DNA of 64,000 nt from Octopus vulgaris (GCA_951406725.2 OX597822.1:25482001-25546000), one strand, 5' to 3'. Shown: positions 27,568 to 58,456, numbered from the stretch's first letter. The notes: generated by a model from the sequence alone, not told the origin. Program-made: numbers and translations.

Positions 27568-27598
<31 letters not shown>

Positions 27599-27599
27599 C

Positions 27600-27981
27600 T
27601 TTATTGCTCACAGGGAGCTAAACATAGTACGGACAAACAAAGGCAGACAAAAGGATTATCTGGTACTTATTTAATCGACCCCGAAAGAATGAAAGGCAAA
27701 GTGGACCTCGACGGAATTTGAACTCAGAACGTAACGGCAGACGAAATACCTATTTCTTTACTATCCACAAGCAACCAAACACAGAGAGGACAAACAAGGA
27801 CAGACAAACGGATTAAGTCGATTATAACGACCTCAGTGCGTAACTGGTACTTATTTAATCGACCCCGAAAGGATGAAAGGCAAAGTCGACCTCGGCGGAA
27901 TTTGAACTCAACGTAACGGCAGACGAAATACGGCTACGCATTTCGCCCGGCGTGCTAACGTTTCTGCCAGCTCACCGCCTT
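27600..27981 (-). mobile_element. Two nested family-A SINEs, both with Tx1-type tails
   Basis: Junction at 27750/27751 (minus strand TAAAGAAATA|GGTATTTCGTCTG); outer tail ends GCTCCCTGTGAGCAATAA next to (TA)n. Confidence 0.75.
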
Positions 27982-33268: not shown

Positions 33269-33479
33269 CATCTGTGTAAGTGTGTAAGATAGATCACTAG
33301 CCACTACACATTCTTTATTTTCTCTCCTTGTTTCTATCCGTGGTCATTTCTGTGGAAGGGCGTAGGTTCGAAACGCTAAAGACTTTTTCACTTTTCGAGC
33401 GTTATACTAATACCTCTGTTTATCGTCTACACCACCTCACTTCGTCCTTTGTTTTGTTTTTGTGACTTCTCCCTATATA

Positions 33480-33997
33480 TCTTTATATATATAAACCTGA
33501 GAATGTGTGTCTGTTTGTCTGTGTGTTTCCCTAAAACTTGAGAACTACACAACCAATTTCATTCAAATTTTTACACATGTCTTACTTAGGGTCCATGAAA
33601 TTTCATGGGCAAAAAAAAATGTTCAACTTCTTGCCTAGGGCGAGCCCATAGCAATATCATATCTTCTCCACTATTTCAGTATTACGTGTTAAAAGTGAAA
33701 CAAAAACGTTTCTCTATTTTATGTCAGATACTTTCACTTTAACAATAAAAATAATAATAACAATTGAATTATATGTAGTAAGTAATAATTAAAATCAAAC
33801 TAAAGTAACATGGCAAAAGTAAAAATAGAAATTGGTATAAAATTGCATCAATGATTTGAACTTGAATAAGTGGTTTCACATGAACGGGAATAAATTAAAA
33901 ATAAAATTAGCGTGTAGAAATGGAATAGTCCAGATGGATAATAAAAAATTAAATTAAAGAAAAGACTATTGTCTATAAAGTATACAATGTAGAGAAA
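33480..33997 (+). mobile_element. Helitron-like non-autonomous element, 5' portion; the retroelement array follows directly
   Basis: A|TCTTTATATATATAAA start; similar to 9200-9360 and to the start of 58071. Confidence 0.5.
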
Positions 33998-35847
33998 GGT
34001 CGCGTTTTTTTCGGCTCCCGTGTTTTTTTGAGTTAGTTAGTTGGAGTTATTCTGGTGTGTTTATTTCGAGTAAAGAGGTTGTGAGTTCGAGTTCGTTGGA
34101 GGACGTGGAATAATTTTTTCTTGAAAATGCAAGAGCAGACTTACGCGCGAGCGGCAGGCAGAGGCCTGGTTGCCGGTGAACTGGAAATGGAGGAGGTGAT
34201 GGTCGAACAGAAGACTTTACAGAAGTATTTCGACAGTTTAAAGAGGGAGGGTGACTGCGTAAGAGTCACACCGTCCGAGGAGGAGGAAAGCAGTGCAGAG
34301 AAGCGTACTATAACGTACAGGACGTGGTGCGTGGAGTCGAAGAAAATTGAAGTAGCGGAAATAGAAGAAGTAGAAAAGTGTCTGAAGGAAATTGAGGGTG
34401 AACCCACATTTTTCAAAGAGGAAAGAAATATGCCACGGTTGTGGTATATTTTGAAACAGAAGATGAGGCAAAAAAGAATGCAACAAGAATTTTGAAGTCG
34501 GATAAGTGGACTTTGTTACCAAGTTACTGTGGAAGGAGAGCAGTGAGGATGAGAATCAATAGAATCTCACCCGAATTTAATATGGAAAGGTTGCTGGCAG
34601 CAGTGCTGTTTAACTGCAAGGATGATGTGGAAGTACTGAAGGTGGAGAAGTCAGCAGAGGTGAAGTGGTGGGGATATACGGTGCAGGTTCTGGCACACAT
34701 AACCGTGAGGGACCTGTACAACATCCCGGAGGAGTTGGTCTACCCTGACGAGACTCGGCTCCGAGTTGTGGTAGAGGGAAGACCCCCAATTTGCTATAAT
34801 TGTAAATCGAGGGGCCACATGAAGGATGTGTGCCCTCGGGAAAAAACAAAAGCACCAGAGGTTGTGATAGAGGAGTGTAAAGATGCGTGTGTGGAGGAAG
34901 CGAAAGCGGAGGAAACACGAATGGAGGAGCAGTTAAATGAGGAAGAACGAGCAAGTGTAGAAGAGGAAAAAACAGAAGAGGAAAAAACAGAAGATAGAAA
35001 GAGATCAAGGGTGGAATCACCACTGAAAGATCTAAAAAAGAAAAAAATCAAAAGTAAGATAGCAGAAGAGAAAACATACAAAGGACAGGAAGTAAAAGAG
35101 AAGGAGAGAGAGTGGCCAAGGACAGAGTTTGAACAAAAATGGGAGAAAAGAGTGAACGAACAATTGGAATCGTGTAAATATGGAAGAAGACCTACAGGAA
35201 AAAACTTGAAGGCAGTTGTGATGTATATCAAGAATACAGAAGTGGAAAAGAGACTGGTAGGTAAGAAAGGGTTGGTCAGGGTGAAGGTGAACCCAAAACT
35301 GTATGGTGAAGATGTAAAAGGCGTCATTATAGACAAAGAGACATACATAAAATTAAAAAAGATATATAATGCTATGCACATAGTGCATTATGTACGGTAT
35401 GATAAATTACCAGATGTAATAGATCAAATGGATCTATTGGATTATATGACGGACGAGCGTCTAACGTAAAAGAAAAAGAATTAGAATTGTTAATTGTAAA
35501 TTGTATGATGTAAAGTTGTATTTTGAACAAGAATATATGTAATGTTAACATGTAAATTGTAAAATTATTGTACTTTGAACTGAATATATGTAACTGGAAA
35601 AACTGTATTTTGAACTAGAATATATGAAATGTAAAATTGTAAAATTATTGTAACTGTAAAATTGTATTGGAATATATGAAATGTATAATTGTATTTTAAA
35701 CGGAACTGCGAGTTGGGGGTTCGTAAGCCGTTCCATCTCATTACATAAAATTCATTTTTACTTCATATTTTATTTTATTTTATGTACCCCATGTCCTGCC
35801 TTGTAATGTCCCCCTCTTCGTCGCCCCTTGTGGGTAATAAAAAAACA
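33998..35847 (+). mobile_element. ORF1-only non-autonomous retroelement, unit U1
   Basis: 27-bp TSD GTCTATAAAGTATACAATGTAGAGAAA (33971-33997 / 35848-35874); 5' GGTCGCGTTTTTTTCGGCTC; 3' GCCCCTTGTGGGTAATAAA; no RT sequence. Confidence 0.85.
34121..35469 (+). CDS. Tx1/L1-type ORF1 protein (RRM-like + CCHC knuckle), one frameshift near 34415
   Basis: ORFs 34121-34495 and 34441-35469 join into ...KRGKKYATVVVYFETE...VEGRPPICYNCKSRGHMKDVC. Confidence 0.8.
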
Positions 35848-35877
35848 GTCTATAAAGTATACAATGTAGAGAAAAAA

Positions 35878-37529
35878 GGTCGTGGTTTTTTCGGCTCCTG
35901 AAATTCGGTAAAAAAGAACAAAAAGCGTTGTTGTTGTTGTGGAAATTCTGAACGGCGTTGACGCGGTTTCGCGTTTCGCTCGTTCAGCGCGTTACACTTT
36001 TTCTGTTTTGGCGGCCGTTTTTCGGTCGGAGGCGACTATGAGCCGCCTCCATCAAGCGGAGGAGATGGAAGGGAGAATTTACTCTGAAATTTCGACGGAA
36101 GTATCGACATCTGAGGAGGAGTTGGCGGTGAAAAAGATGGAAGGCACCTACGCAGGTGTAACGAAGAAGTCAACGGAAAGAGAGATAGACCTGGCTAAGT
36201 TGGCGGGCCTCCAGGAGTTTGTGAAGGAGGACGAGAACGGTGAAGTCGAGCTGCTGCATCCAGTAGGGCGCGGAGACTGGTTCCATCGTAGAACCATTAA
36301 ATATAAAGTATTTATGAATGGAGGTAGAAAGATGGAAGTAATCAACATGGAAGCAATTGAAGAGGCTCTCAAGCAGACAGGAGAGGAAATTGTGTACATG
36401 ACAAAAGGATTACAATACGGAACGATAACGGTGCAATTTAAAAGCGAAAAAGCAGCCAGGAATGTAGCAGCCAAGGTGGTGAGTACAGAAAAGATTTACT
36501 TGTTACCCTCGTATCTGAATAGGCGGACAACCAGAATTAGGGTGGAGGGAATACCTCCACACCTAGAGGGCGAATTAATAACGGCTGCGGTTATAAAAGG
36601 AAATGAAGATAAAGTGGACATCCTCCACGCCATTATGAAGTATGAAGGCGTGAGAGGTGCCACACTAGTTATGAACATTCAAGCGGAGGCGGATGTTATA
36701 GAGAGGATTACGGACAGCATAAAAACTGGAAATATTATTATGAGAGTGTGGGTGGAGGGTAGGGCGCCCAGGTGCTACAAGTGTGGCCAAAGGGGTCACA
36801 TAAGAGCCTACTGCCCTCCCCCACCAAAGGAAAAAGAAAAGGAAAGCGTTGAGGAAGCCTCAGGAGAGGAAGAAAATAAACAGAAACAAACAGAGAAGGA
36901 AACGACAGAAGAAGAGGAGATGCAACAAGAGTGGAAAGAAGGGGGAACAAAGAGAAAAAGAAGGAAAAAGAAAAACTGTGCGAAGCCCCAACCCACCCCG
37001 ACACCACCCATACCCTTGGAGTCCCATCCTTCCCCTGCAAACAGTGATTCCACCCACTCCCCGCCTACAAGAAAAACAAAAACAGACACACAGAGCAAAG
37101 AAAGTCCCAAGACCCATTTTTTATGTGTTATACAAGGGAAAGACATACAAAACGTTAAAAAACTGGTGTTAACCAAGTGGTACGAACACGAAGATTGGAG
37201 CTACACGGCTGTGGATAGTGAGGATACGGGTATATTGGCGACAAGGTTTGAGGAAGAGGGTGTGTGTTGGAAGTCAGTGGAAATGAAAGATGAATGGATA
37301 GAGAGGGCTAAAAGAAAAACGAATGTTGTGATAGGTGAAACAGGAATACTAATTGAAAATGGGTGAAGAAGGACAGATAAGTGATGCTGGCGGATGGGGC
37401 CGTCGGTATCGCTCTCATATATCATTTTCATATTCCATTTGCTCATATATATGTAATTGTGATGTTCCATGTCCCCATGTCTTGTAATGTCCCCCTCTTC
37501 GTTGGCCCCTTGTGGGTAATAAAAAATCA
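35878..37529 (+). mobile_element. ORF1-only retroelement, unit U2
   Basis: 5' GGTCGTGGTTTTTTCGGCTC; 3' GCCCCTTGTGGGTAATAAA. Confidence 0.85.
35939..37366 (+). CDS. ORF1 (gag-like) protein with CCHC knuckle, intact; true start probably an ATG at 36038 or 36065
   Basis: CYKCGQRGHIRAYC knuckle; YGTITVQF RRM-like strand; homologous to LINE ORF1 43019-43885. Confidence 0.85.
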   Translation: MEILNGVDAVSRFARSARYTFSVLAAVFRSEATMSRLHQAEEMEGRIYSEISTEVSTSEEELAVKKMEGTYAGVTKKSTEREIDLAKLAGLQEFVKEDENGEVELLHPVGRGDWFHRRTIKYKVFMNGGRKMEVINMEAIEEALKQTGEEIVYMTKGLQYGTITVQFKSEKAARNVAAKVVSTEKIYLLPSYLNRRTTRIRVEGIPPHLEGELITAAVIKGNEDKVDILHAIMKYEGVRGATLVMNIQAEADVIERITDSIKTGNIIMRVWVEGRAPRCYKCGQRGHIRAYCPPPPKEKEKESVEEASGEEENKQKQTEKETTEEEEMQQEWKEGGTKRKRRKKKNCAKPQPTPTPPIPLESHPSPANSDSTHSPPTRKTKTDTQSKESPKTHFLCVIQGKDIQNVKKLVLTKWYEHEDWSYTAVDSEDTGILATRFEEEGVCWKSVEMKDEWIERAKRKTNVVIGETGILIENG

Positions 37530-39211
37530 CGTGGTTTTTTCGGCTCCTGAAAATTCGGTAAAAAAGAACAAAAAGCGTTGTTGTTGTTGTGGAAATTCTG
37601 AACGGCGTTGACGCGGTTTCGCGTTTCGCTCGTTCAGCGCGTTACACTTTTTCTGTTTTGGCGGCCGTTTTCGGTCTGTCAGACAGAAGGAAATGGACAA
37701 CCCCTACCTGATGGGAGATACGGCTGCAGTTTTTGAGTCTTTAACAGACTTGTCTACGTCTGAGGAGGAGCTAGAAATAGCAGTGAGGAAAATGGATCAG
37801 AAGCTGAGTTATACCTATGCCGGTGTAACCAAGAAGGCGGAAGAGAAAGGGGTCGACATGGCCAAGTTGCCAAGTTACCAGAAATACATGAAAAAGGAAA
37901 GCGGTGAGGTGGAACTATCACCGACACCCAGGAGAAAAGAATGGTATGATAAGAGGACCATTGTTTACAGGGTGTGCGCAAACGAAAGGAAGAGGGTAGA
38001 AGTTGTATCCATGGAATGGATAGAGGAAGCCCTGCGAAGAACTGAGGAGGAAATAAATTTTCTGACTCGAGGATCCAAGTACGGGACCGTAGTTGTGCAC
38101 TTTAAAAGTGAATCTGCAGCGAGGAAGATGGCAGCGAAGGCGGTGAAGTCGGAAAAGGTAACACTGTTACCTACGTATTTAAACAGGAGGATTACACGAA
38201 TAAGGGTGGAGGGAGTGCCACCAAACGTGGAGGCAGAATGGATTGTGGCAGCTGTGATCAGCGGCCACGAGGACGAAGTGGATATTCTCCATGCCTCGGT
38301 TAAGTCCGAAGGCTGGAGAGGCGTAACAGTGGAGCTGAACGTACAGGCAGAGACCGAGGTACTGGTGGACCTGACGGAAAGCATCAGACTGGGAGAAGTG
38401 ATCATGAGAGTGTGGGTGGAGGGCAGGGCTCCACGTTGTTACAAGTGTGGCCTGAGGGGTCACATAAGAGCCTTCTGCCCTCCCCCAGGGAAAGAAATGG
38501 ATTCCGAACCAGAGAGAGAGAAGCAGAAACCAGAGGAGAAGGAAACAGAGGAAGAGAATACACAGAAATGGAAGGAAGCTGGAAGTAAGAGGAAGAGAAG
38601 AATATGTGGAAAAAAAGAAAATAATATGGAACTCCAATCTACCCCAAAACCTCCCACACCCTCTGAGTCCCACCCTATCCATGCAGACATTGAACCCACC
38701 CGCTCCCCCCCAACAAGAAAACAAAAGAAAAAAAAGAATACACACACACAAGAGATTGAAATCGAACCCAGGCCGTACATTTGTACTATGACTGAACAGA
38801 AAGAAGTTAAAAGTCTAATGGAAGAGTATAAATGGTATGATGTTGGAGAGACTAGGTATGCTGTGATTGAAAAGAAGAACATAGGTGAGTTTATGGGGAG
38901 GTGTGAAAGGGAGAATTGGGAGGTGAAAGATATAAGAATGAGCGATGAATTCGTGGAAAATATGGATGAGTATTTCGGAGTAAGAATGGATATGGAATTT
39001 ATTCGTATTGACAAAGAACATTCAAGTGACTATGAAAAACAAAGGACAGGTAAGTGATGCTGACGGACGGGGCCGTTGGTATCGCTTTCATTTTATCATT
39101 TTTTTACGTTTAACAATTCATGTTCATAAAGTTTAATTATAATGTTCTGTGTCCCCATGTTTTGTGATGTCCGCCATTCTTCGTAGCCCCTTAGTGGGTA
39201 ATAAAGAAATA
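37530..39211 (+). mobile_element. ORF1-only retroelement, unit U3
   Basis: Bounded by CGTGGTTTTTTCGGCTC at 37530 and 39212; 3' GCCCCTTAGTGGGTAATAAAGAAATA. Confidence 0.85.
37693..39057 (+). CDS. ORF1 (gag-like) protein, 454 aa, intact
   Basis: CYKCGLRGHIRAFC knuckle; alignable with U2 but clearly diverged. Confidence 0.88.
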   Translation: MDNPYLMGDTAAVFESLTDLSTSEEELEIAVRKMDQKLSYTYAGVTKKAEEKGVDMAKLPSYQKYMKKESGEVELSPTPRRKEWYDKRTIVYRVCANERKRVEVVSMEWIEEALRRTEEEINFLTRGSKYGTVVVHFKSESAARKMAAKAVKSEKVTLLPTYLNRRITRIRVEGVPPNVEAEWIVAAVISGHEDEVDILHASVKSEGWRGVTVELNVQAETEVLVDLTESIRLGEVIMRVWVEGRAPRCYKCGLRGHIRAFCPPPGKEMDSEPEREKQKPEEKETEEENTQKWKEAGSKRKRRICGKKENNMELQSTPKPPTPSESHPIHADIEPTRSPPTRKQKKKKNTHTQEIEIEPRPYICTMTEQKEVKSLMEEYKWYDVGETRYAVIEKKNIGEFMGRCERENWEVKDIRMSDEFVENMDEYFGVRMDMEFIRIDKEHSSDYEKQRTGK

Positions 39212-40904
39212 CGTGGTTTTTTCGGCTCTGTGTTTTTTGCTCTCTGTGGAATTCGGTAAAAAGAAAAAAGAACAAAAAGTGAATGGTTGTTGTTGTAAAA
39301 TTTTGAACGTAGTTGATGCGGTTTCGCGTCTCACTGGTTCTGCGCGTTACACTTTTTCGGTTCGGGAGGCCGTTTTTCGGCCGGAGGCGACTATGAGCCG
39401 CCTCCATCAAGCGGAGGAGATGGAAGGGAGAATTTACTCTGAAATTTCGACGGAAGTATCGACATCTGAGGAGGAGTTGGCGGTGAAAGGGATGGAAGGC
39501 ACCTACGCAGGTGTAACGAAGAAGTCAACGGAAAGAGAGATAGACCTGGCTAAGTTGGCGGGCCTCCAGGAGTTTGTGAAGGAGGACGAGAACGGTGAAG
39601 TCGAGCTGCTGCATCCAGTAGGGCGCGGAGACTGGTTCCATCGTAGAACCATTAAATATAAAGTATTTATGAATGGAGGTAGAAAGATGGAAGTAATCAA
39701 CATGGAAGCAATTGAAGAGGCTCTCAAGCAGACAGGAGAGGAAATTGTGTACATGACAAAAGGATTACAATACGGAACGATAACGGTGCAATTTAAAAGC
39801 GAAAAAGCAGCCAGGAATGTAGCAGCCAAGGTGGTGAGTACAGAAAAGATTTACTTGTTACCCTCGTATCTGAATAGGCGGACAACTAGAATTAGGGTGG
39901 AGGGAATACCTCCACACCTAGAGGGCGAATTAATAACGGCTGCGGTTATAAAAGGAAATGAAGATAAAGTGGACATCCTCCACGCCATTATGAAGTATGA
40001 AGGCGTGAGAGGTGCCACACTAGTTATGAACGTTCAAGCGGAGGCGGATGTTATAGAGAGGATTACGGACAGCATAAAAACTGGAAATATTATTATGAGA
40101 GTGTGGGTGGAGGGTAGGGCGCCCAGGTGCTACAAGTGTGGCCAAAGGGGTCACATAAGAGCCTACTGCCCTCCCCCACCAAAGGAAAAAGAAAAGGAAA
40201 GCGTTGAGGAAGCCTCAGGAGAGGAAGAAAATAAACAGAAACAAACAGAGAAGGAAACGACAGAAGAAGAGGAGATGCAACAAGAGTGGAAAGAAGGGGG
40301 AACAAAGAGAAAAAGAAAGAAAAAGAAAAACTGTGCGAAACCCCAACCCACCCCAACACCACCCGCACCCTCTGAATCCCACCCTTCCCCTACAGACAGT
40401 GAACCCACCCACTCCCCTCCAACAAGAAAACAAAAGAAAAATACAGACAGACAAGAGTTTGAAAACGAACCCAGGCCGAACATTTATATTGTGACTGAAC
40501 AGAAAGAGGTTGAAAGGGTAATGGAGGAGTATGAATAGTATGAAATGGATGGGACCAGATATGCAGTGCTGGAAAAGAAGAATATAGATGAGTTTATGTT
40601 GAGGTGTGAAAGGGAGAATTGGGAGGTGAAAGATATAAGAATGAGCGATGAATTCGTGGAATATATGGAGGACAGTTTCGGAGTAAGAATGGATATGGAT
40701 GGTCTTCGTATTGGGAATGAACATTCAGGTGACAGTGAAAACAAAAGGTCAGGTAAGTGGTGCTAGCGGATGGGGCCGTTGGCACCGCTTTCATATATCA
40801 TTTTCAAAATTCATTTTACTCATATCTATGTAATTGTGATGTTCTATGTCCCCAATGTTTGTAACGTCCCCTCTATGTAGCCCCTAGTGGGTAATAAAGA
40901 ATCA
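39212..40904 (+). mobile_element. ORF1-only retroelement, unit U4
   Basis: Same 5' motif; 3' GCCCCTAGTGGGTAATAAAGAATCA. Confidence 0.85.
39213..40766 (+). pseudogene. ORF1 protein with one premature stop (TAG 40536-40538; TGG in U5)
   Basis: ORFs 39213-40538 and 40545-40766 are in frame and nearly identical to U5. Confidence 0.8.
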
Positions 40905-40969
40905 GGATAATAAAAAATTAAATTAAAGAAAAGACTATTGTCTATAAAGTATACAATGTAGAGAAAAAA

Positions 40970-42648
40970 GGTCGTGGTTTTTTCGGCTCCTGAAATTCGG
41001 TAAAAAAGAACAAAAAGCGTTGTTGTTGTTGTGGAAATTCTGAACGGCGTTGACGCGGTTTCGCGTTTCGCTCGTTCAGCGCGTTACACTTTTTCTGTTT
41101 TGGCGGCCGTTTTTCGGTCGGAGGCGACTATGAGCCGCCTCCATCAAGCGGAGGAGATGGAAGGGAGAATTTACTCTGAAATTTCGACGGAAGTATCGAC
41201 ATCTGAGGAGGAGTTGGCGGTGAAAAAGATGGAAGGCACCTACGCAGGTGTAACGAAGAAGTCAACGGAAAGAGAGATAGACCTGGCTAAGTTGGCGGGC
41301 CTCCAGGAGTTTGTGAAGGAGGACGAGAACGGTGAAGTCGAGCTGCTGCATCCAGTAGGGCGCGGAGACTGGTTCCATCGTAGAACCATTAAATATAAAG
41401 TATTTATGAATGGAGGTAGAAAGATGGAAGTAATCAACATGGAAGCAATTGAAGAGGCTCTCAAGCAGACAGGAGAGGAAATTGTGTACATGACAAAAGG
41501 ATTACAATACGGAACGATAACGGTGCAATTTAAAAGCGAAAAAGCAGCCAGGAATGTAGCAGCCAAGGTGGTGAGTACAGAAAAGATTTACTTGTTACCC
41601 TCGTATCTGAATAGGCGGACAACCAGAATTAGGGTGGAGGGAATACCTCCACACCTAGAGGGCGAATTAATAACGGCTGCGGTTATAAAAGGAAATGAAG
41701 ATAAAGTGGACATCCTCCACGCCATTATGAAGTATGAAGGCGTGAGAGGTGCCACACTAGTTATGAACATTCAAGCGGAGGCGGATGTTATAGAGAGGAT
41801 TACGGACAGCATAAAAACTGGAAATATTATTATGAGAGTGTGGGTGGAGGGTAGGGCGCCCAGGTGCTACAAGTGTGGCCAAAGGGGTCACATAAGAGCC
41901 TACTGCCCTCCCCCACCAAAGGAAAAAGAAAAGGAAAGCGTTGAGGAAGCCTCAGGAGAGGAAGAAAATAAACAGAAACAAACAGAGAAGGAAACGACAG
42001 AAGAAGAGGAGATGCAACAAGAGTGGAAAGAAGGGGGAACAAAGAGAAAAAGAAGGAAAAAGAAAAACTGTGCGAAGCCCCAACCCACCCCGACACCACC
42101 CATACCCTTGGAGTCCCATCCTTCCCCTGCAGACAGTGAACCCACCCGCTCCCCTCCAACAAGAAAACAAAAGAAAAATAATAATACAGACAGACAAGAG
42201 TTTGAAAACGAACCCAGGCCGAACATTTATATTGTGACGGAACAGAAAGAGGTTGAAAGGGTAATGGAGGAGTATGAATGGTATGAAATGGATGGGACCA
42301 GATATGCAGTGCTGGAAAAGAAGAATATAGATGAGTTTGTGTTGAGGTGTGAAAGGGAGAATTGGGAGGTGAAAGATACAAGAATGAGCGATGAATTCGT
42401 GGAATATATGGAGGACAGTTTCGGAGTAAGAATGGATATGGATGGTCTTCGTATTGGGAATGAACATTCAGGTGACAGTGAAATCAAAAGGACAGGTAAG
42501 TGATGCTGGCGGAGGGGGCCGTTAGCATCGCTTTCATATTATCATTTTTCATTTTCATTTGCTCATAAATTTAATCATATTGTTCTATGTCCCCCATGTT
42601 TTGTTATGTCCGCCATTCTTCGTAGCCCCTGGTGGGTAATAAAGAAAT
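40970..42648 (+). mobile_element. ORF1-only retroelement, unit U5
   Basis: Preceded by a copy (40905-40966) of the array's upstream flank 33936-33997; 3' GCCCCTGGTGGGTAATAAAGAAAT. Confidence 0.85.
41031..42503 (+). CDS. ORF1 (gag-like) protein with CCHC knuckle, intact
   Basis: Identical to U2 up to ...ESHPSPA, then a U3/U4-type C-terminus. Confidence 0.85.
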   Translation: MEILNGVDAVSRFARSARYTFSVLAAVFRSEATMSRLHQAEEMEGRIYSEISTEVSTSEEELAVKKMEGTYAGVTKKSTEREIDLAKLAGLQEFVKEDENGEVELLHPVGRGDWFHRRTIKYKVFMNGGRKMEVINMEAIEEALKQTGEEIVYMTKGLQYGTITVQFKSEKAARNVAAKVVSTEKIYLLPSYLNRRTTRIRVEGIPPHLEGELITAAVIKGNEDKVDILHAIMKYEGVRGATLVMNIQAEADVIERITDSIKTGNIIMRVWVEGRAPRCYKCGQRGHIRAYCPPPPKEKEKESVEEASGEEENKQKQTEKETTEEEEMQQEWKEGGTKRKRRKKKNCAKPQPTPTPPIPLESHPSPADSEPTRSPPTRKQKKNNNTDRQEFENEPRPNIYIVTEQKEVERVMEEYEWYEMDGTRYAVLEKKNIDEFVLRCERENWEVKDTRMSDEFVEYMEDSFGVRMDMDGLRIGNEHSGDSEIKRTGK

Positions 42649-42878
42649 AACATGGAGGAAAGCAATTCATTGCGTTATTAGTAAGTTGATATATATTTTT
42701 GCTCTCATACTACTTATCTCTGTTATTATATACTGTTGGTCTACCTTTTTTGTCCATTGTTGTCTAACGGACGAAGTCAACCTTCGCGCGAAGACTTCGC
42801 GTTGGTGTTCCCCCCTCAGTGGGGGAAAACTACAATCAATTTAGATTACCAAAGGCTTGTTAAAGCCATTTGTTCAAA

Positions 42879-44256
42879 ATGGAGTCCCCCATCACTTATT
42901 CGCCCGTGACGAGCGAGGATGAATACCCGGCGTTGTCGCCAAGTAAAAAAGAGGCGTTGTCGCCAAGAAAAAAAGAGGCGCTGTCGCCGAAGAAAAAGAG
43001 GCGGCGTCGCCCAAGAAAATGGTAAAACCAGTACCAGCATCAACTCCAGCAAAAAAATTCGCTGAAGTGGCTGGGAAGAAAATTAAAAAAATTAACGTGG
43101 ACAACCTGGGAAAACATGCGGACTGTGTGTCAAAAGAGGGCACGGAAGTAACCGTGGCTTCAAACGCCCAAATACAGGAGGATATTTCGAATAGGAGAAT
43201 AATCTATAAGACATTCAGTATAACAAACAGAGCAATCCAAAAAATAGAGGAGAAAAAGATTGAAAACTGCTTAAAGCCAATAATGGATAAAATTACGTAT
43301 ATCAATCGAGGGAAGAAATACGGCACAGTGGAGGTGAGATTCACGTCAGAGGAGGTAGCGAAGAAGCTATCCATGGAACCCATAAAAGCGGAGGATATTG
43401 TTCTCCTACCCCTGTATAAAGGCAAGAGAACTTCCAAAATCACTATGAACAACATCCCGCCAGAAGCGGATGCCGAAGTCCTAGTAGCAGCAGTTATGGT
43501 AGGCCTGGAGGAAAAAATAAACATCCTCCAGGCCACCGTAGAAGAAGAAGAATTCTGGAAAGGGCAAAAGATAATAATAGCTATACAAGCAGAAGTACAA
43601 ACCCTGGAAGAGATCCCAGAGACTCTAAGGATAAGCGAAGATGAAAGAGTCACAGTCTTCGTAGAGGGCAGAAAGCCGAGGTGCTTCGGCTGCGGTAAGA
43701 AGGGGCATGTAAGGGCGGAATGCCAGCCCCAACCCAAACCGCAGGAAGCACCTAAGCCAAAAGGAAAAGAAGACAATGTGTCACCAGAAGCAGCGTCAGA
43801 CGGCCCAGAAGGGAAGACTGAAGGTGTGGAGGTGATGGTAACAGCAGAACCAGCGGCGGAGAAAAAAAGAGCGAGGAAAAGATAAATGAGGAGGGGTGGG
43901 CAAAAATTATCGGAAAAAAAAAAAGAAAAACGGAAACCACCCCTCCCAGAGTAATTTTAAAAAAGAAAAAAGAGTCAATGAACTCATATATGGCCGTAAA
44001 AGCATCAAATAGCAGACTCGGAAACGTGTTGGCAGCCATGGCCAATGTGAAGAGAGTAGAGAAAAAAAATGACTTTCTAATTTACAAAATAGACCGGAAG
44101 GATTACGGGCGGATAAAGTCAGAATTCTTCCATGACGTAGGCCCACTTAGGTTGGATGTAACATCTCCACATATATTCGAGGGCCTACGTCAGACTCCCC
44201 CACGAGGCCCAGAAAAAGAGAAGGAAGAAGAAGAAAAAACCGAACCACTGATATAA
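42879..44256 (+). CDS. LINE ORF1 (RRM-like + CCHC), split by two 1-nt frameshifts in A-runs (~42995, ~43865)
   Basis: ATG at 42879 (MESPITYSP...), ORF 43019-43885 with CFGCGKKGHVRAEC, continuing into 43978-44256. Confidence 0.8.
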
Positions 44257-44265
44257 AGGTAAGTA

Positions 44266-47200
44266 ATGGATTACATTTATGTTGGTTGTTTAAATGTGCG
44301 CGGCCTGGGAGCAGGCTGGAAGCAAGGTCGCTTCCTGCATGATATCAGGTCGCGTAATTTAGATGTTATTGTTGCTACAGAAACCCGGCTAGAGGGGCCA
44401 AGAGGTCTACTCCCGCTGTTTGACGGCTACGAGAGTTTTTTCTCTCCTGGCAGTCCTACAGGCGGGAGTGGGGTGTTGGTCCTATTAAAAAGAAACCGGG
44501 TTTCTGAGAAAAAGTTAATTTTTGCAGATCCAGAAGGTAGGCTTGTCGTCATGGATTTGACGTTCAGTAATGGTAAAGTTATCAGACTGGTTGCAATTTA
44601 CGCACCCAACCATACAGGGCAAAGTGATTATTTTCGTGAAATAGAAAACTTTCTTGGTACTTCGCATTCATTAGTGGTGCTAGGAGACTTTAACACAATT
44701 TGCAAAGCGGATGTAGATTATGTTGGCTCGTGTCCAGATAGAAAAGGCAACAGTGGCTTCATGGAACTGCTAAGCCGCTTTGAGCTAGCAGATCCTTATA
44801 GGCTGGAATTTCCGAACGCTCCATTGTGGACATGGTCAAACAGCGACGGATCTTCCAGGTCGTATCTAGATAGAATACTAATTAGAAAAGTAGACAGTAA
44901 AATAGCTAAGTGTCCACAGTTTTACCCGATCAGCTACAGTGATCATAAAATGGTCACTTGTAAGCTTGACATAGATAAGGTTAAAAATAGAGGATCCGGT
45001 TACTGGAAACTTAATACGTCCCTTTTGGCGATTAAGGAGTACAAAGACCGGATTAGGAATATAATTCAGAGGGCACTATCTGGTACCATCATTAATAACA
45101 AATGGTGGTACGCCCTCAAACGAGCCATCAAGTTTGAGTCTATTAGATATAGCATAGGAGTAGTGGCTAGAGAGGCTAGAAGGGAAACTACTCTAGTTAA
45201 GGAATTAGAGGAAGCCATGAAAACTGGCTCTGCGGCTCAGGTGGCGGCCAAGAGACTGGTGTTAAACCAGCACCTCGAGGCCAAACACATGGGCTGCATT
45301 GTCAGGGCTAGAATCCGTCATATGGGATGTGAAGGAATCAACGCCGTGAGATGGGCCCGAGTGGTGGAAGCTCAGCATGGTAACGATGCCACGATTCGAT
45401 CTTTGACGAACCAACAAGGTGAGTTGATAAACGAACCCGAGGAGATGTGTGAGGCCTTTCAGGAGCACTTCGCTCAGCTTTTCGGTGAGTGCGGCGGACT
45501 GGATAGGAGGAGGGCCTTTACGGACCTACTCGACGGTCTGCCGCGCTTATCGGGGCGAGATGCGGAGGGCTGTGAAGGGCCAATCACGCCTGAGGAGGTG
45601 GTTGAGGCAATGGCAGACTGCGGCGCGGGCAAGGCGCCGGGTTTGGATGGTCTACCCTATGAGTTATATAAGAGTATGCCAGACTTGTTCGGGCACCTAC
45701 TGGCGGAGGTCTACGCGAACTGGCAGCAGAACGGGCTTATACCCAGATCTGTGCGCCGGGGAGTAGTGACTCTCGTCAGAAAGGACCCGAGCAAGGGGGA
45801 GTGCATTGATAATTTCAGGCCCATCACTCTGCTAAACACAGAGTTGAAGATTTTGGCCAAAGTGTTATCGAAAAGATTGGCGCGTGTCGCGGATGGTCTG
45901 ATCGGAGGGGCACAGACATGTGCCGTTCCGGGCAGATCCATTCAGGATAATCTCCATCTAATGCGGTACACTATAGAGGGGTTTAATAGTGATTCTGGCA
46001 AGGGTGGGGCACTGGTCCATTTAGACCAATCTAAAGCTTTTGATAGGGTCGACCATCGTTACCTGGTATCTGCCCTGGCACAGTTCGGGCTGAGCCTTGG
46101 ATTCCTCAGGTGGATTATCGAAATTTATGATAACATCGACTCGGTAGTTCGGGTGAACGGCTTCTTGTCGAAGCCGTTCAAAATCAAACGCTCGGTTCGT
46201 CAAGGGTGTCCGCTCTCCCCGCTTTTGTACGTGATGGCTCTTGAGCCATTACTGCGAAAACTGAGCGGCATCCCGAGACAGCCAGGTAATGGAAAATCAG
46301 TGTCAGCGTACGCGGATGACATCACCATCATCGTAACCGAAATGGACCACCTATGTAAAGTAGGCAAGGCCATAGAGGTGTACGAGACGGTGACAGGAGC
46401 AAAAGTTAATCGCGAAAAGTCAGTCGGCTTGCAACTCGGCACCTGGAGAGGCAAGTCGATGCCTCCTGACAGCGTCGTGGGACGTTGGACGGAGGGTCCG
46501 ATTAAACTGCTAGGGGTCTGGTTCGGTCCAGACCTCCAAATAGAGAAGAATTGGGGCGAGGTAACGAGCAAGGTGGCTGCAGTAGCCAAGACCTGGTCTT
46601 GGCGGTGGCTATCCCTGAAAGGGAGGGCGGAGGTGGCCAATGTGTTTATCGCATCGGTTATCACCTACCGCCTTTCCGTCGTTCCTTGCCCTGATTCGTG
46701 GTTGATCAAGTTGGAAAGACAGCTCTTCTACTTCTTGTGGAAGGGCGGGAAACCACTTGTGAAACGCTCTACTTGCTGTCAACAACCGTTAAAGGGTGGG
46801 CTAGGGATGCCTTGGCTGATGATGCGCAGACATGCGCTGAGGTTAAGACATCTGTGGCTCTACCTGGATGGTGAACGGGTGTGGTCTTCGCTAGCAAAAC
46901 TGATGTTTCCCAAGTTCACTAGTTTCGGTGGATGGGAAACCTGGCTGAATCGTAGATCGAAACTTGGTACTTGGTACACGGAGTGTCGCAAGGCTCTCCT
47001 GCTATTCCGTCGCTCGGGCAACGCCTGCGGTGGGGGTTCCACCACTTTCTTCTATAGAGGGTTGGTAGAGGCGGAATGTGAAGATACCTTGGGGGAAACC
47101 CTAGGTCTCGACGATAATCAGCTGGCCAGTCTGTTCCGACGTACGTTCGAGCCAAGGACACTGGACAACTTCCAGAAGTCTCTGGCATGGCAATGCTACA

Positions 47201-47661
47201 GAGGAGCTCTACCTGTTCGGGATAAACTCGCAAGGCACGGTGGCCAAGACAGTCCGATATGTCCAAGATGCGGGCGGGATAGGGAAACCGTCCCGCACGC
47301 GATTGTTCATTGTCCGGACGTGTCTGAGGTGTGGGTTTATGCCGAACACCTGTTGTCAGGTACACGAAGAGTACAGCTGTCGACTGAGTCGATTACAAAA
47401 ATTGACCCACCGGATTTCCTCGTGAATGAAGGTAAGTTTCGTTTTCTCGTTGTAGTAGCAATCGCGAAAGAGGTGATATGGAAGACGAGAATGAAAGGTT
47501 TACAGTCAGGCAAGTTCATCTCCGGCCCTGGTTTGATGAATTATTTCATCTTTCACCTGAAAAGGAAGATAGGGCTGGAGAGAATATGCCTGACTAGGAG
47601 AGCGTATGAAGAACGATGGAAGGATGTAGCACGGAAGTTGCGAATGAAAGTTACAACATAA
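44266..47661 (+). CDS. LINE ORF2: APE endonuclease + reverse transcriptase + C-terminal Cys/His (zf-RVT-like) domain, 1131 aa, intact
   Basis: APE motifs LNVRGL, ETR, GDFN, LDRI, SDH; GYWKLN; RT motifs PGLDG, FRPITLLN, DQSKAFDRV, RQGCPLSP, YADD; CPRC-x8-H-x4-C. Confidence 0.97.
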   Translation: MDYIYVGCLNVRGLGAGWKQGRFLHDIRSRNLDVIVATETRLEGPRGLLPLFDGYESFFSPGSPTGGSGVLVLLKRNRVSEKKLIFADPEGRLVVMDLTFSNGKVIRLVAIYAPNHTGQSDYFREIENFLGTSHSLVVLGDFNTICKADVDYVGSCPDRKGNSGFMELLSRFELADPYRLEFPNAPLWTWSNSDGSSRSYLDRILIRKVDSKIAKCPQFYPISYSDHKMVTCKLDIDKVKNRGSGYWKLNTSLLAIKEYKDRIRNIIQRALSGTIINNKWWYALKRAIKFESIRYSIGVVAREARRETTLVKELEEAMKTGSAAQVAAKRLVLNQHLEAKHMGCIVRARIRHMGCEGINAVRWARVVEAQHGNDATIRSLTNQQGELINEPEEMCEAFQEHFAQLFGECGGLDRRRAFTDLLDGLPRLSGRDAEGCEGPITPEEVVEAMADCGAGKAPGLDGLPYELYKSMPDLFGHLLAEVYANWQQNGLIPRSVRRGVVTLVRKDPSKGECIDNFRPITLLNTELKILAKVLSKRLARVADGLIGGAQTCAVPGRSIQDNLHLMRYTIEGFNSDSGKGGALVHLDQSKAFDRVDHRYLVSALAQFGLSLGFLRWIIEIYDNIDSVVRVNGFLSKPFKIKRSVRQGCPLSPLLYVMALEPLLRKLSGIPRQPGNGKSVSAYADDITIIVTEMDHLCKVGKAIEVYETVTGAKVNREKSVGLQLGTWRGKSMPPDSVVGRWTEGPIKLLGVWFGPDLQIEKNWGEVTSKVAAVAKTWSWRWLSLKGRAEVANVFIASVITYRLSVVPCPDSWLIKLERQLFYFLWKGGKPLVKRSTCCQQPLKGGLGMPWLMMRRHALRLRHLWLYLDGERVWSSLAKLMFPKFTSFGGWETWLNRRSKLGTWYTECRKALLLFRRSGNACGGGSTTFFYRGLVEAECEDTLGETLGLDDNQLASLFRRTFEPRTLDNFQKSLAWQCYRGALPVRDKLARHGGQDSPICPRCGRDRETVPHAIVHCPDVSEVWVYAEHLLSGTRRVQLSTESITKIDPPDFLVNEGKFRFLVVVAIAKEVIWKTRMKGLQSGKFISGPGLMNYFIFHLKRKIGLERICLTRRAYEERWKDVARKLRMKVTT

Positions 47662-47906
47662 ATGTAATACCAAGTGCAACCAAAAGTATCAGTGGGGAGG
47701 CGGGGCTCGTGGGGTCCGAGCTAAACCCGCACCCACTCCACCCGTAATGTCTTCCGGTCTGTCCTATCACTCGATTTTTGTCCATTTATTGTTATTCATG
47801 AAAATTTTTAAACCCGATTTATTGTAAAAACCCATTCGTTTGTCTGACCCCATCATCAGATTGTATTGTCCCATCTGTGTTCGCCCCTTGTGGGTAATAA
47901 TAAAAC

Positions 47907-48200
47907 AACATGGAGGAAAGCACCTTCAAAAAGTATCTTTGTGCGACTATGAAAGGTATCTAATCAGAGGCGGTAAATTCGCCACAATAGAAGCAAGGTT
48001 CGAGTCAACGGAGCGTGCAAGGGAGTACTCGACTCGAACCTTGCAAAGTGGAAATATTTTATTTTTACCTTTATGTCTGGGATGTAGGTCGTACCGGAAA
48101 AAAAATTTTAATGCCCCCCCCCCCCCGAAGTAGAGGTAGGCTGGATTGTAGTCACACTTCTATACAAGAGGGAGGACAAGATACAATTGATCGAAATTAT
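47907..48200 (+). pseudogene. Degraded internal fragment of a related ORF1
   Basis: YLIRGGKFATIEARFESTERAREYSTRTLQSGNILFLPLCLG aligns to YINRGKKYGTVEVRFTSEEVAKKLSMEPIKAEDIVLLPLYKG. Confidence 0.7.
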
Positions 48201-48361
48201 AAGAGACGGGCTAACAATTCCAGTCTGTTATATATTTTGAGTATTGTTATCACTAGCGATATCAAGATATAACTTTGTATTTTGTATTTTATGTGTAGAT
48301 GTATATATATATAGATGCACATGTAATATGTACACATATATATATACACATATATACATGC

Positions 48362-48401
48362 ACTAGCACTATGACCCGGCAACGACGGGTCTTTAATGCT
48401 A

Positions 48402-48403
<2 letters not shown>
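48362..48403. mobile_element. Helitron-like 3' terminal hairpin ending in CTAG|T
   Basis: ACTAGCA..GACCCG-GCAACGA-CGGGTC..TGCTAGT. Confidence 0.5.
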
Positions 48404-48492: not shown

Positions 48493-48870
48493 GGAATGAC
48501 AATCAGACAGACATACAGACTGACAAATAGTTAGATAGATAGTTTAGACACCATAAGCAAACGAGTAAGATTGGCAGTCTGTTGTTTTAGATGACTGTGT
48601 AGTCACGACCTCACATAGGAGCTCATTCAGTTCTCACATTCTTGATCAAGCGGTATGTCGACGTTGTGACAACTGAAAGGCAAGTGAGGAGCATGAGCAG
48701 TCAGTTAGTATTCATCTTCAATTTGGTTGACGGGAATAACGGGAATCGAACTCATGACCTTATGCTCTAGAGTCCAACATCTTTGGCCATGAGTCTACCC
48801 ACCCCCACATACACATACATATATACATGCATACACACATATGCGCAGCTGTATCTGTGTGGTAAGAAGA

Positions 48871-49273
48871 AGGCGGCGAGCTGGCAGAATCGTTAGCACG
48901 CCGGGCGAAATGCTTTGCGGTATTTCGTCTGCTGTTACGTTCTGAGTTCAAATTCCGCCGAGGTCGACTTTGCCTTTCATTCTTTCGGGGTCGATAAATT
49001 AAGTACCAGTTACGCACTGGGGTCAATATAATCGACTTGATCCGTTTGTCTGTCCTTGTTTTTCCCCTCTGTGTTTAGCCCCTTTTGGGTAGTAAAGAAA
49101 TAGGTATTTCGTCTGTCTTTACGTTCTGAGTTCAAATTCCGCCGAGGTCGACTTTGCCTTTCATCCTTTCGGGATCGATAAATTAAGCACCAATTACGTA
49201 CTGGTGTCGATCTAATCGACTGACCCCCTCCTAAAACATGTTGGGCCATGTGCCTAGAGTAGGAAAGAATATT
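48871..49273 (+). mobile_element. Nested family-A SINEs: a Tx1-tailed SINE within a host SINE head
   Basis: GGTATTTCGTCTG at 48919 and again at 49103, immediately after the tail GCCCCTTTTGGGTAGTAAAGAAATA. Confidence 0.8.
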
Positions 49274-50179: not shown

Positions 50180-53100
50180 ACCGGGGACGTTTAAAATGTG
50201 AGGACGATAAAACAGTGCTCCGAAATCTATCCACAAACATCGAAAAAAAAGACATCGTATGGAGCCAAAAATTTACTAACAAAGAATCGGACTATATCCG
50301 AGTAAGTAAAACTCATTGAAATTTATTACTATTTTCGAAACGAAATGATGTATTTTAACTCGATATCATCTCCACCTCTAACACAACACATGTAAACATG
50401 CGTGGAACATTACGATCTATCATCACCAGATCATCCCCGATCCAAACACCATGTACAAAAAAACTACGAAGAAATTAAATAACACCGATATTATTCAACC
50501 CAAGAATAACAATCTGGAAGTACGTACTTTAAACTTACAACCGAATATGTACGAAAAACTACACGTATAAAACAATGTGACAACAGAAATGAACAGACCG
50601 GTACCCTACGAAAATGACGACCGTCAAAATAATGGGCTGGACGTTGTTCCTCATGTCTCGCAAATAAAACCCAAAAGACATAAATGGACACGTGAGGAAT
50701 ACATTTCTACCCTACACGCTTACTTCACAGCAGTGCTCTACCCAGAAAATGAAAACACAACAACACATACATATAAAATATGGAAGGAAAATAACATAAA
50801 TATAGACTTGGATACAGCAATGAACCCTAATAAACTAGCTAACGCACAAAGATACATTCTCAACGCAAAAAACATATCAGAAATAGAAATAGAACATCTA
50901 AAAGAAAAAATACATCAGGAAAATGTAGATAGAAGCCACACAACAATGCCCAATAATATAAACATTGAAACAGTAAAACACCAAGACAAACGTAACATTC
51001 CCAACAAACACGATGTAAACAAAAAAACAACAAACCCAGACCGTAAGGATGCATAATAATACACGACAAACAGCAAGCCAAAAAACGACAAACAAACATA
51101 CAAATGAGAAAGAAAGCGATACAAATCTAAAACCTGGAAACAACGAAGGGGAGCCTAATGATTATGATAATATAAAAAGTAGAATAATCAAAGAACTGAA
51201 AACCACAAATCTCAAAATGGACCACCGACCATACCTCCCAAAAATCAAAATAGACGAAACAGCAACACCAATATTAAAAACAGCATAAACCTAGCCGTCA
51301 CGGGACTAATAGCCACTGAAACAAAAAGCGATATCACTGAGCTAAATGACTTAGTATACGCAGTAGCCAGTGCAGCCACAAAAGAAGCTGGTTACTCACT
51401 CAAACCCATCCAAACAGGAGTACCACCACCCAAACAAACCCTATGGATAAATAACACCCAAAACAAAATACAAAAAATGAGAAAAGATCTGTCGATTCTT
51501 AATGAAATCAGTAGAAAATCAACGCTACCGAGCAACAAAAAGAAAACAAAAATACTCCGCAAATATAACATCACAGAAAAAGATTTACCTGAGATAAAAG
51601 AAAAGCTAAAGCAAGATATCCTTGCCAAAGCACAAAGGATCCGCCGGTACGAGAAACGCCAGCGCTTCTTTGAACAAAACAAAAAGTTCAACTCCAACCA
51701 CAAAAAGTTCTACCAAGAACTTGGCAAAAATAAAATAGAAATCACTGCAGCACCAATGGCAGAAGAAGTGGAAGAATTCTGGAGAGAAATATGGTCGGCG
51801 AACGAACAACCAAAAAAACAAGGAGTATTAAAACAACAAACTCAGCATCTGAGCAACTTTGGACCCCCATAACAACTGAAGAGGTCACCCAGGCACTGCA
51901 AAGACTAAGCAACTGGAAAGCACCAGGGCATGACAAGATCCCCAGCTTCTGGTTGAAATATCTAACAGGAATGCACAAAAAGCTGGCTAAAAACTTTAAC
52001 AACATACTAGTAGAGCCAGAGACAATGCCTGAATGGCTCACGAAGGGAAAAACCATCTTAATTCCCAAATCAAATGAGACAGCAAAACCAGAAAACTACA
52101 GATGAATAACCTGTCTCCCTACAATGTACAAGGCATTTACTGCAGTGATATCGCAAAGGTTGAACAAGCACCTGGACGAAAACAACCTGTTTCCAGAAGA
52201 GCAGAAAGGATGCCGCAAAGGCTCATATGGCTGTAAAGATCAACTAATGATTAATAAAGCCATAACTGAAGACAGCGACAGAAATCAGAAAGGCCTCAGT
52301 ATGGCCTGGATCGACTACAAAAAGGCGTTTGATAGTATCCCCCACACATGGATATTCGAAACACTGGCCATTAACAAAGTAGCACCAACAATTATAAAAT
52401 TCATAGGACACTCTATGAATAAATGGCAAACAGTGCTACAGCTCCAAACAAAAAAGGGACTAATGAAAACCAAAGCCATCCCCATTAGAAGAGGAATATT
52501 CCCGGGAAACACGCTCTCTCCACTCCTTTTCTGCTTGGCACTGTCACCTCTATCTGATATGCTAAACAGAACTGGATGCGAATATAAATGTAAAGGCAAA
52601 ACGATCAGCCACCTTTTATATATGGATGACCTAAAACTATACGCTGCAAATGACAAACAGCTGGAAACACTATTAAAGACAGTTCATGGATTTACCAAAG
52701 AAATAGATATGAAATTTGGATTAGAAAAATGCGCCAAAGTAACCATGAAAAGAGGAAAACTAGTTAAGAGTAGCAACATCACACTAGATAAAACCAATGA
52801 AATAAAAGAATTAGACCAAAGCCAAACTTACAAATACTTAGGAATCCATGAACTAGATAAGACACAACACACACAAATGAAAGAGAAAATAAAAAAAGAA
52901 TATTATAGATGAGTTAGATCAATACTAAAAACAGAGCTCAATGCTAAAAACAAGATAATAGGTATTAACACTTTAGCTGTCCCAGTTATAAGTTACAGCT
53001 ACAATATCCTTAACTGGACACTAAATGAACTGACCAAAGTAGATAGGAAAACAAGAAAAATAATGACAGGATCTAGGATGCATCACCCAAAATCTGACAT

Positions 53101-58070: not shown

Positions 58071-58456
58071 TCTCTCTCTATATAAACGGCAGTTTGTCTG
58101 TGCGTGTTTCTGTGTGTCTGTTTGCTTGTACCCTCACTCTGACCACGGCTTTCAACCGATTCTGATGAAACTTGACACACACATAGCCCAATGTCATAAT
58201 TCAAAACTAACGCAGCGAAAATTTTGAAAAGTTCCCCCAGTTCTGAAAAAAATCGAATAAATTCGACATGGGGTCGAGAATAAAAAAAAACAAACCACAG
58301 ACTGTCTAGGGGACGCAACTCAACCTTTTTTTACTCTCAAAAAAATTTACTATCATTTTTTTTCCATTTTTTTACTATTTTTTGGCTATAACTCTCTAAA
58401 AATGCTTTATAGTTATTTCCCTTACAAACCTGAGCAACGCCGGGCGATACTGCTAG
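58071..58456 (+). mobile_element. Non-autonomous Helitron-like element
   Basis: A|TC 5' end, CTAG|T 3' end, subterminal GC-rich GAGCAACGCCGGGC, no TSD. Confidence 0.7.

What the first reader, a model, noticed from the sequence alone, without database searches (positions are those of the whole stretch)
35878..39228. ORF1-only units begin with a mimic of the putative target site: self-targeting could build the array
Seen: every unit starts with (C)GTGGTTTTTTCGGCTC (U1 variant CGCGTTTTTTTCGGCTC). The U3/U4 junction TAATAAAGAAATA|CGTGGTTTTTTCGGCTC parallels the SINE junction TAGTAAAGAAATA|GGTATTTCGTCTG (shared GGT-W-TTTCG-K-CT). U3 is flanked by a 17-bp direct repeat of this motif (37530, 39212). 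U1 and U4 end about 30 and 65 bp upstream of a unit start. Inference: each insertion brings a new landing site, so arrays grow head-to-tail.
Basis: inference. Interest (0 to 1): 0.78.

Follow-up and report, generated by a model that had tools for sequence, protein, structure and literature searches.

The report
Retrotransposon pile-up inside one host repeat
Five ORF1-only retrotransposon units and one complete LINE lie head-to-tail inside an older, likely Helitron-type repeat, and they likely piled up by repeated insertion near one spot of that repeat rather than by cutting a target 'mimic' at their own starts.

Summary
The 17-bp head motif, the 17-bp repeat around U3 and the 30/65-bp spacers are real; the 'mimic' reading is not supported. 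The array (U1-U5 plus an L1/Tx1-type LINE, 33998-47907) interrupts an older repeat. This repeat carries a decayed ORF1 and Helitron-like ends. Public contigs show its empty junction, which lacks the motif. The spacers are exact copies of the host DNA left of the array. The six tails land at -65, -30, +3, +3, +9 and +9 around one host anchor; only 2 of 6 land at the motif. U5 and the LINE end at the same host base, with a 15-bp duplication between them. Best reading: serial insertion near the host anchor, which is renewed by duplication (0.55); template jumping is the main rival (0.2). Precedents: Tx1-Mar/SINEU-3, R1 tandem arrays, HAL1. Genome-wide counts were not possible.

The parts
33480..33997 (+). 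Left arm of the host repeat; starts A|TC, with a (GTCT)-like tract (Helitron-like 5' end, inferred)
   Evidence: TC at 33480; 33474-33662 is 81% like two other copies at 8919-9100 and 9183-9366
33936..33997 (+). Host anchor S; reads EKTIVYKVYNVEK, the first strand of an old ORF1 RRM
   Evidence: Top non-training hit of an ORF1 13-mer profile among 127,918 window 13-mers (25.8; next unrelated hit 19.8)
33998..35847 (+). U1: ORF1-only unit of a divergent family, ORF in two frames (34127-34495, 34402-35469), CCHC knuckle, shared tail
35848..35877 (+). 30-bp spacer = copy of the host anchor (27/27 identical to 33971-33997, plus AAA)
35878..37529 (+). U2: ORF1-only unit (ORF 36038-37366, 442 aa); 5' 1.2 kb nearly identical to U5, different C-terminal part
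   Evidence: 1 difference in 1193 bp against U5 including spacer; 47-48% in the 3' ORF
37530..39211 (+). U3: ORF1-only unit (454 aa); U2-type 5' UTR on a divergent ORF; flanked by the 17-bp motif
   Evidence: UTR has 2 differences in 142 columns against U2; protein 56-59% to U5; the same UTR/ORF join is seen as a loose end in run X9
39212..40904 (+). U4: ORF1-only unit with its own UTR type and a premature stop at 40536-40538
   Evidence: 4 differences in 923 bp of ORF core against U5
40905..40969 (+). 65-bp spacer = copy of the host anchor (62/62 identical to 33936-33997, plus AAA)
40970..42649 (+). U5: ORF1-only unit (ORF 41130-42503, 457 aa): predicted tandem RRMs, CCHC knuckle, small C-terminal domain; about 8 bp of host missing at its site
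   Evidence: empty junction
42650..42664 (+). Left copy of the LINE's 15-bp target site duplication
   Evidence: 15/15 identical to 47908-47922
42665..47907 (+). Full-length L1/Tx1-type LINE: frameshifted ORF1, open ORF2 44269-47661 (APE endonuclease, RT, zf-RVT), same tail; its head is unrelated to the motif
47908..48402 (+). Right arm of the host repeat: rest of the decayed ORF1 (about 47908-48200), then a hairpin 48373-48391 and CTAG|T (Helitron-like 3' end, inferred)
   Evidence: tblastn E 3e-7 to the LINE ORF1; fold z -4.9; highest-depth bin in 4 of 4 runs
48870..49221 (+).

Best explanation
Five ORF1-only units and one complete L1/Tx1-type LINE share one 3' tail and sit inside an older repeat with Helitron-like ends, and they likely arrived by separate insertions, likely driven by this LINE family's ORF2, within about 75 bp of one host anchor. 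SHOWN: unit anatomy; a common tail (GCCCC-loop-GGG plus exactly 13 nt, no poly(A)); the host's empty junction; spacers that are host copies; a 15-bp TSD around the LINE; about 8 bp of host missing at U5. INFERRED: ORF2 binds the shared tail in trans and nicks near the anchor GTAGAGAAAAAAG. First-strand junctions fall at -65, -30, +3, +3, +9, +9, while the 5' junction is always made at the end of the anchor. Each event leaves an intact anchor at the left edge of the array, so the next unit can land there and the array grows head-to-tail. The head motif is simply the units' common 5' end. It may help close the 5' junction by pairing with an existing head, but it is not needed for landing.
For: Empty junction 40968-40970 -> 47907-47911 in 3 of 3 DNA runs, with several letter variants (ATTTGAAC-type) and no motif; a matching loose end in the fourth run. 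Both arms are halves of one decayed ORF1. Spacers are 62/62 and 27/27 copies of the left flank. U5 and the LINE end at the same host base with a TSD between them, so at least two events used one base. Other contigs put a tail at the -30 site of a different anchor variant (X4) and at about +8 to +13 of an internally deleted host (X1, X4, X9). Tails differ between units (72-94% over the last block), unlike plain duplicates. Precedents: tandem SINEU-3 around a TSD in Mariner-N4 (PMC4494074); R1 arrays separated by target DNA, and R1 9-bp deletions with upstream target in the RNA (PMC2718515).
Against: The junctions share no sequence consensus (2-6 of 13 identical bases between different sites), whereas R1/R2 first-strand nicks are rigid. 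A 65-bp duplication is long. U1's left anchor has A3, not A6, which needs a slip or a shifted cut. U2|U3 and U3|U4 have no host DNA between them. One search showed no intermediate allele among the 15 of 384 joints listed. No denominator exists for solitary copies: tails joined to unrelated DNA can appear only as loose ends, of which 24 of 3521 were shown. The SINE uses the same tail yet is dispersed, and one SINE tail ends in (TA)n, so the family's machinery is not confined to this site.
Confidence: 0.55

Rival explanations
1. Template-jump concatemer: the nick at +9 (ACATGG) is the only target. The LINE inserted once. U5-U4-U3-U2-U1 came in one event in which the RT ran off each RNA's 5' end (-65, +3, +3, -30) onto the next RNA's tail, and U1's upstream host leader paired with the target, deleting about 8 bp.
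For: One rigid nick site suffices. It explains the exact 13-nt tails, the lack of host DNA at U2|U3 and U3|U4, U1's A3, and the same +3 and -30 registers in other copies. A TATAAAG in the anchor lies 30 nt before +3 (noticed after the fact; background 0.65 per kb). The units are mosaics. R2 proteins jump between templates in vitro (PMC11371274 passages); some R1 RNAs carry upstream target.
Against: It needs four consecutive jumps across about 8.6 kb among families as far apart as 32% protein identity. The spacers are identical to this locus's own flank, although host copies vary (a loose-end consensus differs at 2 of 30 bases just upstream; the X4 anchor variant has a substitution and a 3-bp gap).
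Confidence: 0.2
2. Weak self-targeting by RNA homology: read-through transcripts carry the next head (or host DNA) beyond the tail, pair with a nicked target and so re-create inherited junctions; the head motif is a priming pad, not a cut site.
For: Exact registers recur without a sequence consensus between sites. Tails stop only 6-7 nt after AATAAA in 5 of 6 elements and have no poly(A). R1 transcripts are proposed to carry and anneal 3' flanking target.
Against: No RNA ends could be mapped (contigs only). It still needs the host anchor for U1, U4, U5 and the LINE.
Confidence: 0.12
3. One reading: the head motif imitates the endonuclease target (as seen at the SINE junction), so every insertion brings a new cut site.
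For: 2 of 6 window tails end exactly at the motif; the 17-bp repeat around U3 has TSD length; two more head variants join tails in the same register in X1; heads CGTGG and target CATGG are similar, with a 1-nt offset.
Against: The empty target lacks the motif; 4 of 6 tails land elsewhere; the proposed pattern matches 0 of 5 heads and the SINE likeness is chance-level; the autonomous LINE's own head has no motif.
Confidence: 0.08
4. The array grew mainly by unequal exchange or tandem duplication after one or two insertions.
For: U2 and U5 differ at 1 of 1193 bp including the spacer; U4 differs from both at 4 of 923 bp; mosaic boundaries; a tail-to-UTR joint has high depth in X4.
Against: Five different tails, three UTR types, three kinds of junction and ORFs down to 32% identity; duplication alone would repeat one junction.
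Confidence: 0.05

Closest known systems
Tx1-Mar LINEs and SINEU-3 in Mariner-N4_AMi; Tx1L in Tx1D (PMC4494074: introduction, part 3 of 5 and passages read)
   Same: L1/Tx1-type machinery favouring a site in a high-copy non-autonomous DNA transposon; non-autonomous partners share the target; tandem copies around a TSD; both TSD and target truncation occur; 5' extensions derived from the target.
   Different: Here the host has Helitron-like ends and carries a decayed ORF1 of the invaders' own kind; the partners are ORF1-coding units of several families; spacers are upstream target of 27-65 bp. Tx1 clade membership and genome-wide preference were not established.
R1 tandem arrays and melanogaster-type R1 junctions (PMC2718515: passages and section 15; PMC5932611: passages)
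   Same: Serial insertion into one site; copies separated by target DNA; a 14-15 bp TSD or an 8-9 bp deletion at the same nick; upstream target duplicated at 5' ends.
   Different: R1 is a different clade and targets 28S rDNA with an invariant first nick; here tails end at four positions and most array members are non-autonomous.
HAL1 (half-L1) elements (PMC5753468: passages; the original paper was not held)
   Same: Non-autonomous LINE derivatives that encode only ORF1p.
   Different: HAL1 is described from mammals; here the units have a predicted RRM-RRM-CCHC ORF1, a stem-loop tail without poly(A), and lie in a site-bound array.
Zepp / ZeppL self-nesting L1 elements (PMC8226300: passages)
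   Same: Arrays built by insertion at or into existing copies.
   Different: Zepp arrays are mostly 5'-truncated 3' ends of autonomous elements; these units keep their heads, and 4 of 6 tails land in host DNA.
HeT-A / TART telomeric arrays (search listings only; details recalled)
   Same: ORF1(gag)-only elements in head-to-tail arrays beside an autonomous partner.
   Different: This array is internal, with 33 kb and 15 kb of other sequence on either side in the window, and has target duplications.

Membership tests
L1 group LINE (L1/Tx1) | ORF2 with APE endonuclease, RT and C-terminal zinc motif, closest to L1 ORF2p | tested here: met
   Pfam Exo_endo_phos 1.5e-13, RVT_1 1.4e-30, zf-RVT 1.4e-8; best PDB hits L1 ORF2p E 5e-65, R2 E 5e-26
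Tx1 clade | RT phylogeny grouping with named Tx1 families | not testable with these tools
   No named Tx1 reference among the 120 listed of 448 ORF2 hits; the name look-up could not be made. The Tx1 label rests on recall (CCHC ORF1, site preference).
Tx1 clade | Target preference (over 20% of flanks in one repeat, the criterion in PMC4494074) | tested here: inconclusive
   6 of 6 elements in the window and 5 listed tail joints fall at the host anchor or a head, but the listing cannot show a denominator
HAL1-type ORF1-only non-autonomous LINE | Encodes ORF1 only, homologous to the partner LINE's ORF1 | tested here: met
   34-38% identity to the LINE ORF1, E 1e-28 to 1e-46; no RT or EN domain in U1, U2, U3, U5 (U4 not scanned, 97% to U5); model pLDDT 72 matches tandem-RRM proteins, E 3e-5
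HAL1-type ORF1-only non-autonomous LINE | Shares the 3' end recognised by the partner LINE | tested here: met
   GCCCC-N-GGGTARTAA occurs 8 times: 5 units, the LINE, 2 SINEs; 0 in 100 shuffles. The 4-bp stem is invariant, with no covariation.
HAL1-type ORF1-only non-autonomous LINE | Each copy shows its own retrotransposition hallmark | tested here: inconclusive
   U1 and U4 are flanked by host duplications and U5 by a truncation; U2 and U3 are ambiguous (0-17 bp)
Non-autonomous Helitron (host) | 5' TC, 3' CTRR, hairpin near the 3' end, insertion between A and T (features as in PMC4344730 passages) | tested here: met
   A|TC at 33479/80; CTAG|T at 48399-48403; hairpin 48373-48391
Non-autonomous Helitron (host) | Both ends belong to one element across copies | tested here: inconclusive
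Zepp-type self-targeting LINE | New copies insert into existing copies, giving arrays of 5'-truncated ends | tested here: not met
   All 5 units keep the head motif; 4 of 6 tails land in host DNA
HeT-A-type telomeric element | Chromosome-end location without target duplication | tested here: not met
   Internal position; duplications present

The most novel reading that the evidence does not exclude
A guild of ORF1-only retroelements perpetuates its own landing pad by RNA homology. Units insert just downstream of a TATA box in a Helitron-borne fossil of their own ORF1 and are transcribed from it. They carry host anchor at the 5' end and the next head at the 3' end of their RNA, and use both to dock at occupied sites, so arrays extend themselves without a fixed endonuclease sequence.
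Probability: 0.18. Interest if true: 0.72.

Novelty: new variant of a known kind. Interest (0 to 1): 0.46.

Why it matters
If it holds genome-wide, this would be a transposon-targeting LINE system in octopus with a Helitron-like host, several ORF1-only passenger families, and junctions fixed at the 5' side but variable at the 3' side, the reverse of R1/R2. One locus records six events, so serial insertion and template jumping can be told apart with population long reads and RNA-end mapping. The empty, occupied and deleted targets give ready substrates for an endonuclease assay. The general kind (site-preferring Tx1-type LINEs, ORF1-only derivatives, tandem arrays split by target DNA) is already known.

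Tried and rejected
An RNA-gene target (snRNA, tRNA, 5S) was considered: Rfam over 30000-52000 gave 47 matches, all below gathering score and none in 33400-43400. An anchor pattern scan of metagenome contigs found 0 matches. 80 of 91 distant ORF2 loci (24-48% identity) were fetched; neither the tail pattern nor the head motif occurs in any of the 80, so they say nothing on targeting. The cluster name look-up could not be made. No RNA holder was listed for the stretch; all runs were contigs, so transcript ends and the presence of the motif in RNA are untested. The SINE junction as independent evidence for a target was rejected. The tail stem shows no covariation. tblastn did not detect the short left half of the old ORF1; a small profile did. 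DPE- or Inr-like readings of the head were considered from recall and dropped as untested. Earlier-findings look-ups by place, by sequence (twice) and one by words returned nothing. The HAL1 paper PMC2923044 was not held. The supplement of PMC13282606 and the repeat libraries (Repbase, Dfam) were not seen and may already name these families.

Full report
Setting. The window is microsatellite-rich animal DNA. All 7 proteins found with the U5 ORF1 are named Octopus vulgaris predicted proteins, and one ORF2 hit is from Argonauta, so this is an octopod genome. No whole genome was available.

The head motif is real: 5 matches, one per unit, and none in 100 shuffles. The 17-bp repeat at 37530/39212 and the 30 and 65 bp gaps are as described. 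The claimed parallel with the SINE is not. The pattern GGT-W-TTTCG-K-CT matches four SINE sites and no unit head. The residual match (7 of 8) is 4 nt out of register, and its score is reached by 6% of random window 17-mers and 48% of shuffles. The SINE junction is the boundary of a core+tail repeat inside the SINE, present in 3 of 4 tail copies; the fourth tail runs into (TA)n.

Anatomy. U1 (33998-35847), U2 (35878-37529), U3 (37530-39211), U4 (39212-40904) and U5 (40970-42649) each hold one ORF that is 34-38% identical to the ORF1 of the LINE that follows. A CCHC knuckle was scored just under the Pfam cut-off in U1, U2 and U5. A model of U5 (mean pLDDT 72; about 90 in residues 50-260) matches tandem-RRM proteins. 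The LINE (42665-47907) has an open APE-RT-zinc ORF2, closest among solved structures to human L1 ORF2p; Tx1 membership is a recalled lead, not a tested one. Units, LINE and SINE end in GCCCC-loop-GGG plus exactly 13 nt, without poly(A). The units are mosaics. U2 equals U5 at 1192 of 1193 bp and then switches; U3 has the U2 UTR on an ORF 56-59% identical to U5; U4 has its own UTR.

The host. The DNA left of U1 reads EKTIVYKVYNVEK, the best non-training hit of an ORF1 13-mer profile among 127,918 window 13-mers. The DNA right of the LINE is the continuation of a decayed ORF1 (E 3e-7). Laying four public contig sets on 40760-48280 joined the two sides directly. Joints 40968-40970 -> 47907-47911 with 8-11 letters of the ATTTGAAC type between appear in 3 of 3 DNA runs from three studies, and a matching loose end in the fourth run. 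The empty target therefore has no head motif, and about 8 bp of it are missing at U5. These contigs may be other copies of the repeat rather than the empty allele of this locus. An internally deleted host (40970 -> 48210) is also present in three runs. The right arm is the deepest bin in all four runs; depth is not a copy number, but with several junction variants it points to a multicopy repeat. The outer ends are A|TC at 33480 and a hairpin plus CTAG|T at 48373-48402, the features given for Helitrons in PMC4344730 (passages). The uninterrupted length would be about 1025 bp. That both ends belong to one element is inferred.

Junctions. With G40970 as 0, the first base after each tail lies at -65 (U4), -30 (U1), +3 (U2, U3) and +9 (U5, LINE). 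The spacers are 62/62 and 27/27 copies of the left flank, and the LINE has a perfect 15-bp TSD. The sites share no consensus. Other genomic copies repeat the registers: tails joined at +3 to two further head variants (X1); a tail at -30 of a variant anchor (X4); tails at about +8 to +13 if read in the deleted host (X1, X4, X9); and a tail-to-UTR joint with unknown letters between (X4). Only 15 of 384 joints, 12 of 98 between-letter rows and 24 of 3521 loose ends were shown, and joints need both sides on the stretch. These rows show recurrence, not frequency.

Mechanism. I favour serial insertion near the host anchor (0.55). The LINE and U5 used the same base in two events. U4 and U1 duplicated upstream host DNA. 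U2 and U3 landed at the anchor/head boundary. Every step leaves an anchor at the left edge. The main rival (0.2) is one concatemer made by template jumps at RNA 5' ends. It needs only one nick site and explains U1's shorter A-run and the recurring +3 register (a TATAAAG lies 30 nt before +3, noticed after the fact), but it needs four jumps and anchor copies identical to this locus. RNA-guided docking by read-through transcripts (0.12) is the surviving form of self-targeting. The strict mimic model gets 0.08, plain duplication 0.05.

Known systems. Crocodilian Tx1-Mar and SINEU-3 prefer a Mariner element and form tandems around a TSD, and Tx1L inserts in Tx1D (PMC4494074; introduction, part 3 of 5 and passages). 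R1 forms arrays separated by target DNA and makes either a 14-bp TSD or a 9-bp deletion with upstream target in its RNA (PMC2718515; passages and section 15). Double insertion as a general source of tandems is in PMC5932611 (passages). HAL1 is the ORF1-only precedent (PMC5753468, passages), Zepp the self-nesting one (PMC8226300, passages). Endonuclease specificity of Tx1L versus L1 is described in PMC1950540 (passages), and template jumping by R2 proteins in PMC11371274 (passages). A recent O. vulgaris repeat annotation lists 13 recently active L1-Tx1 and 8 Helitron families; the words 'nested' and 'target' do not occur in its main text (PMC13282606; part 1 of 3 and passages; supplement not read). 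Eight searches listed no paper on such an octopus array; subscription journals and repeat databases were not covered. Unchecked notes from other genomes in this scan describe L1/Tx1 elements reusing sites in relatives or near a Helitron end; they are analogies, not support.

Verdict. Observation partly confirmed; interpretation partly supported; a new variant of a known kind; interest 0.46.

Noticed in passing
window 8880-9405: A 263-bp palindrome (96%) made of two ~190-bp copies of the host repeat's 5' part facing away from a central (TA)n.
   Followed up: partly
window about 59369-60620: A solitary, decayed ORF1-like remnant of the same protein family (tblastn E 3e-9) with no head motif, no GCCCC tail and no ORF2 seen behind it.
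   Followed up: partly
window about 50570-54130: A second, broken LINE of another kind (RVT_1 at 52106-52912) ending near a (TAA)n run.
   Followed up: no
window 58429-58457: Another Helitron-like 3' end (hairpin-like sequence plus CTAG|T); its fold is not better than shuffles.
   Followed up: partly
window 27594-27981 (-), 48870-49221, 295-590: The common SINE is built as head + (core+tail) repeated, and shares its tail with the LINE, which suggests the same ORF2 family mobilises it.
   Followed up: partly
proteins P0001, P0002, P0004: O. vulgaris predicted proteins made of three tandem copies of the U3-type C-terminal domain (P0001, P0002), or with this domain at the end of a 652-aa host-like protein (P0004); possibly gene models stitched across similar arrays.
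   Followed up: no
window 40943-40949 (and 33974, 35851): A TATAAAG in the host anchor lies 30 nt upstream of the motif's first C; the units may borrow a host promoter.
   Followed up: partly
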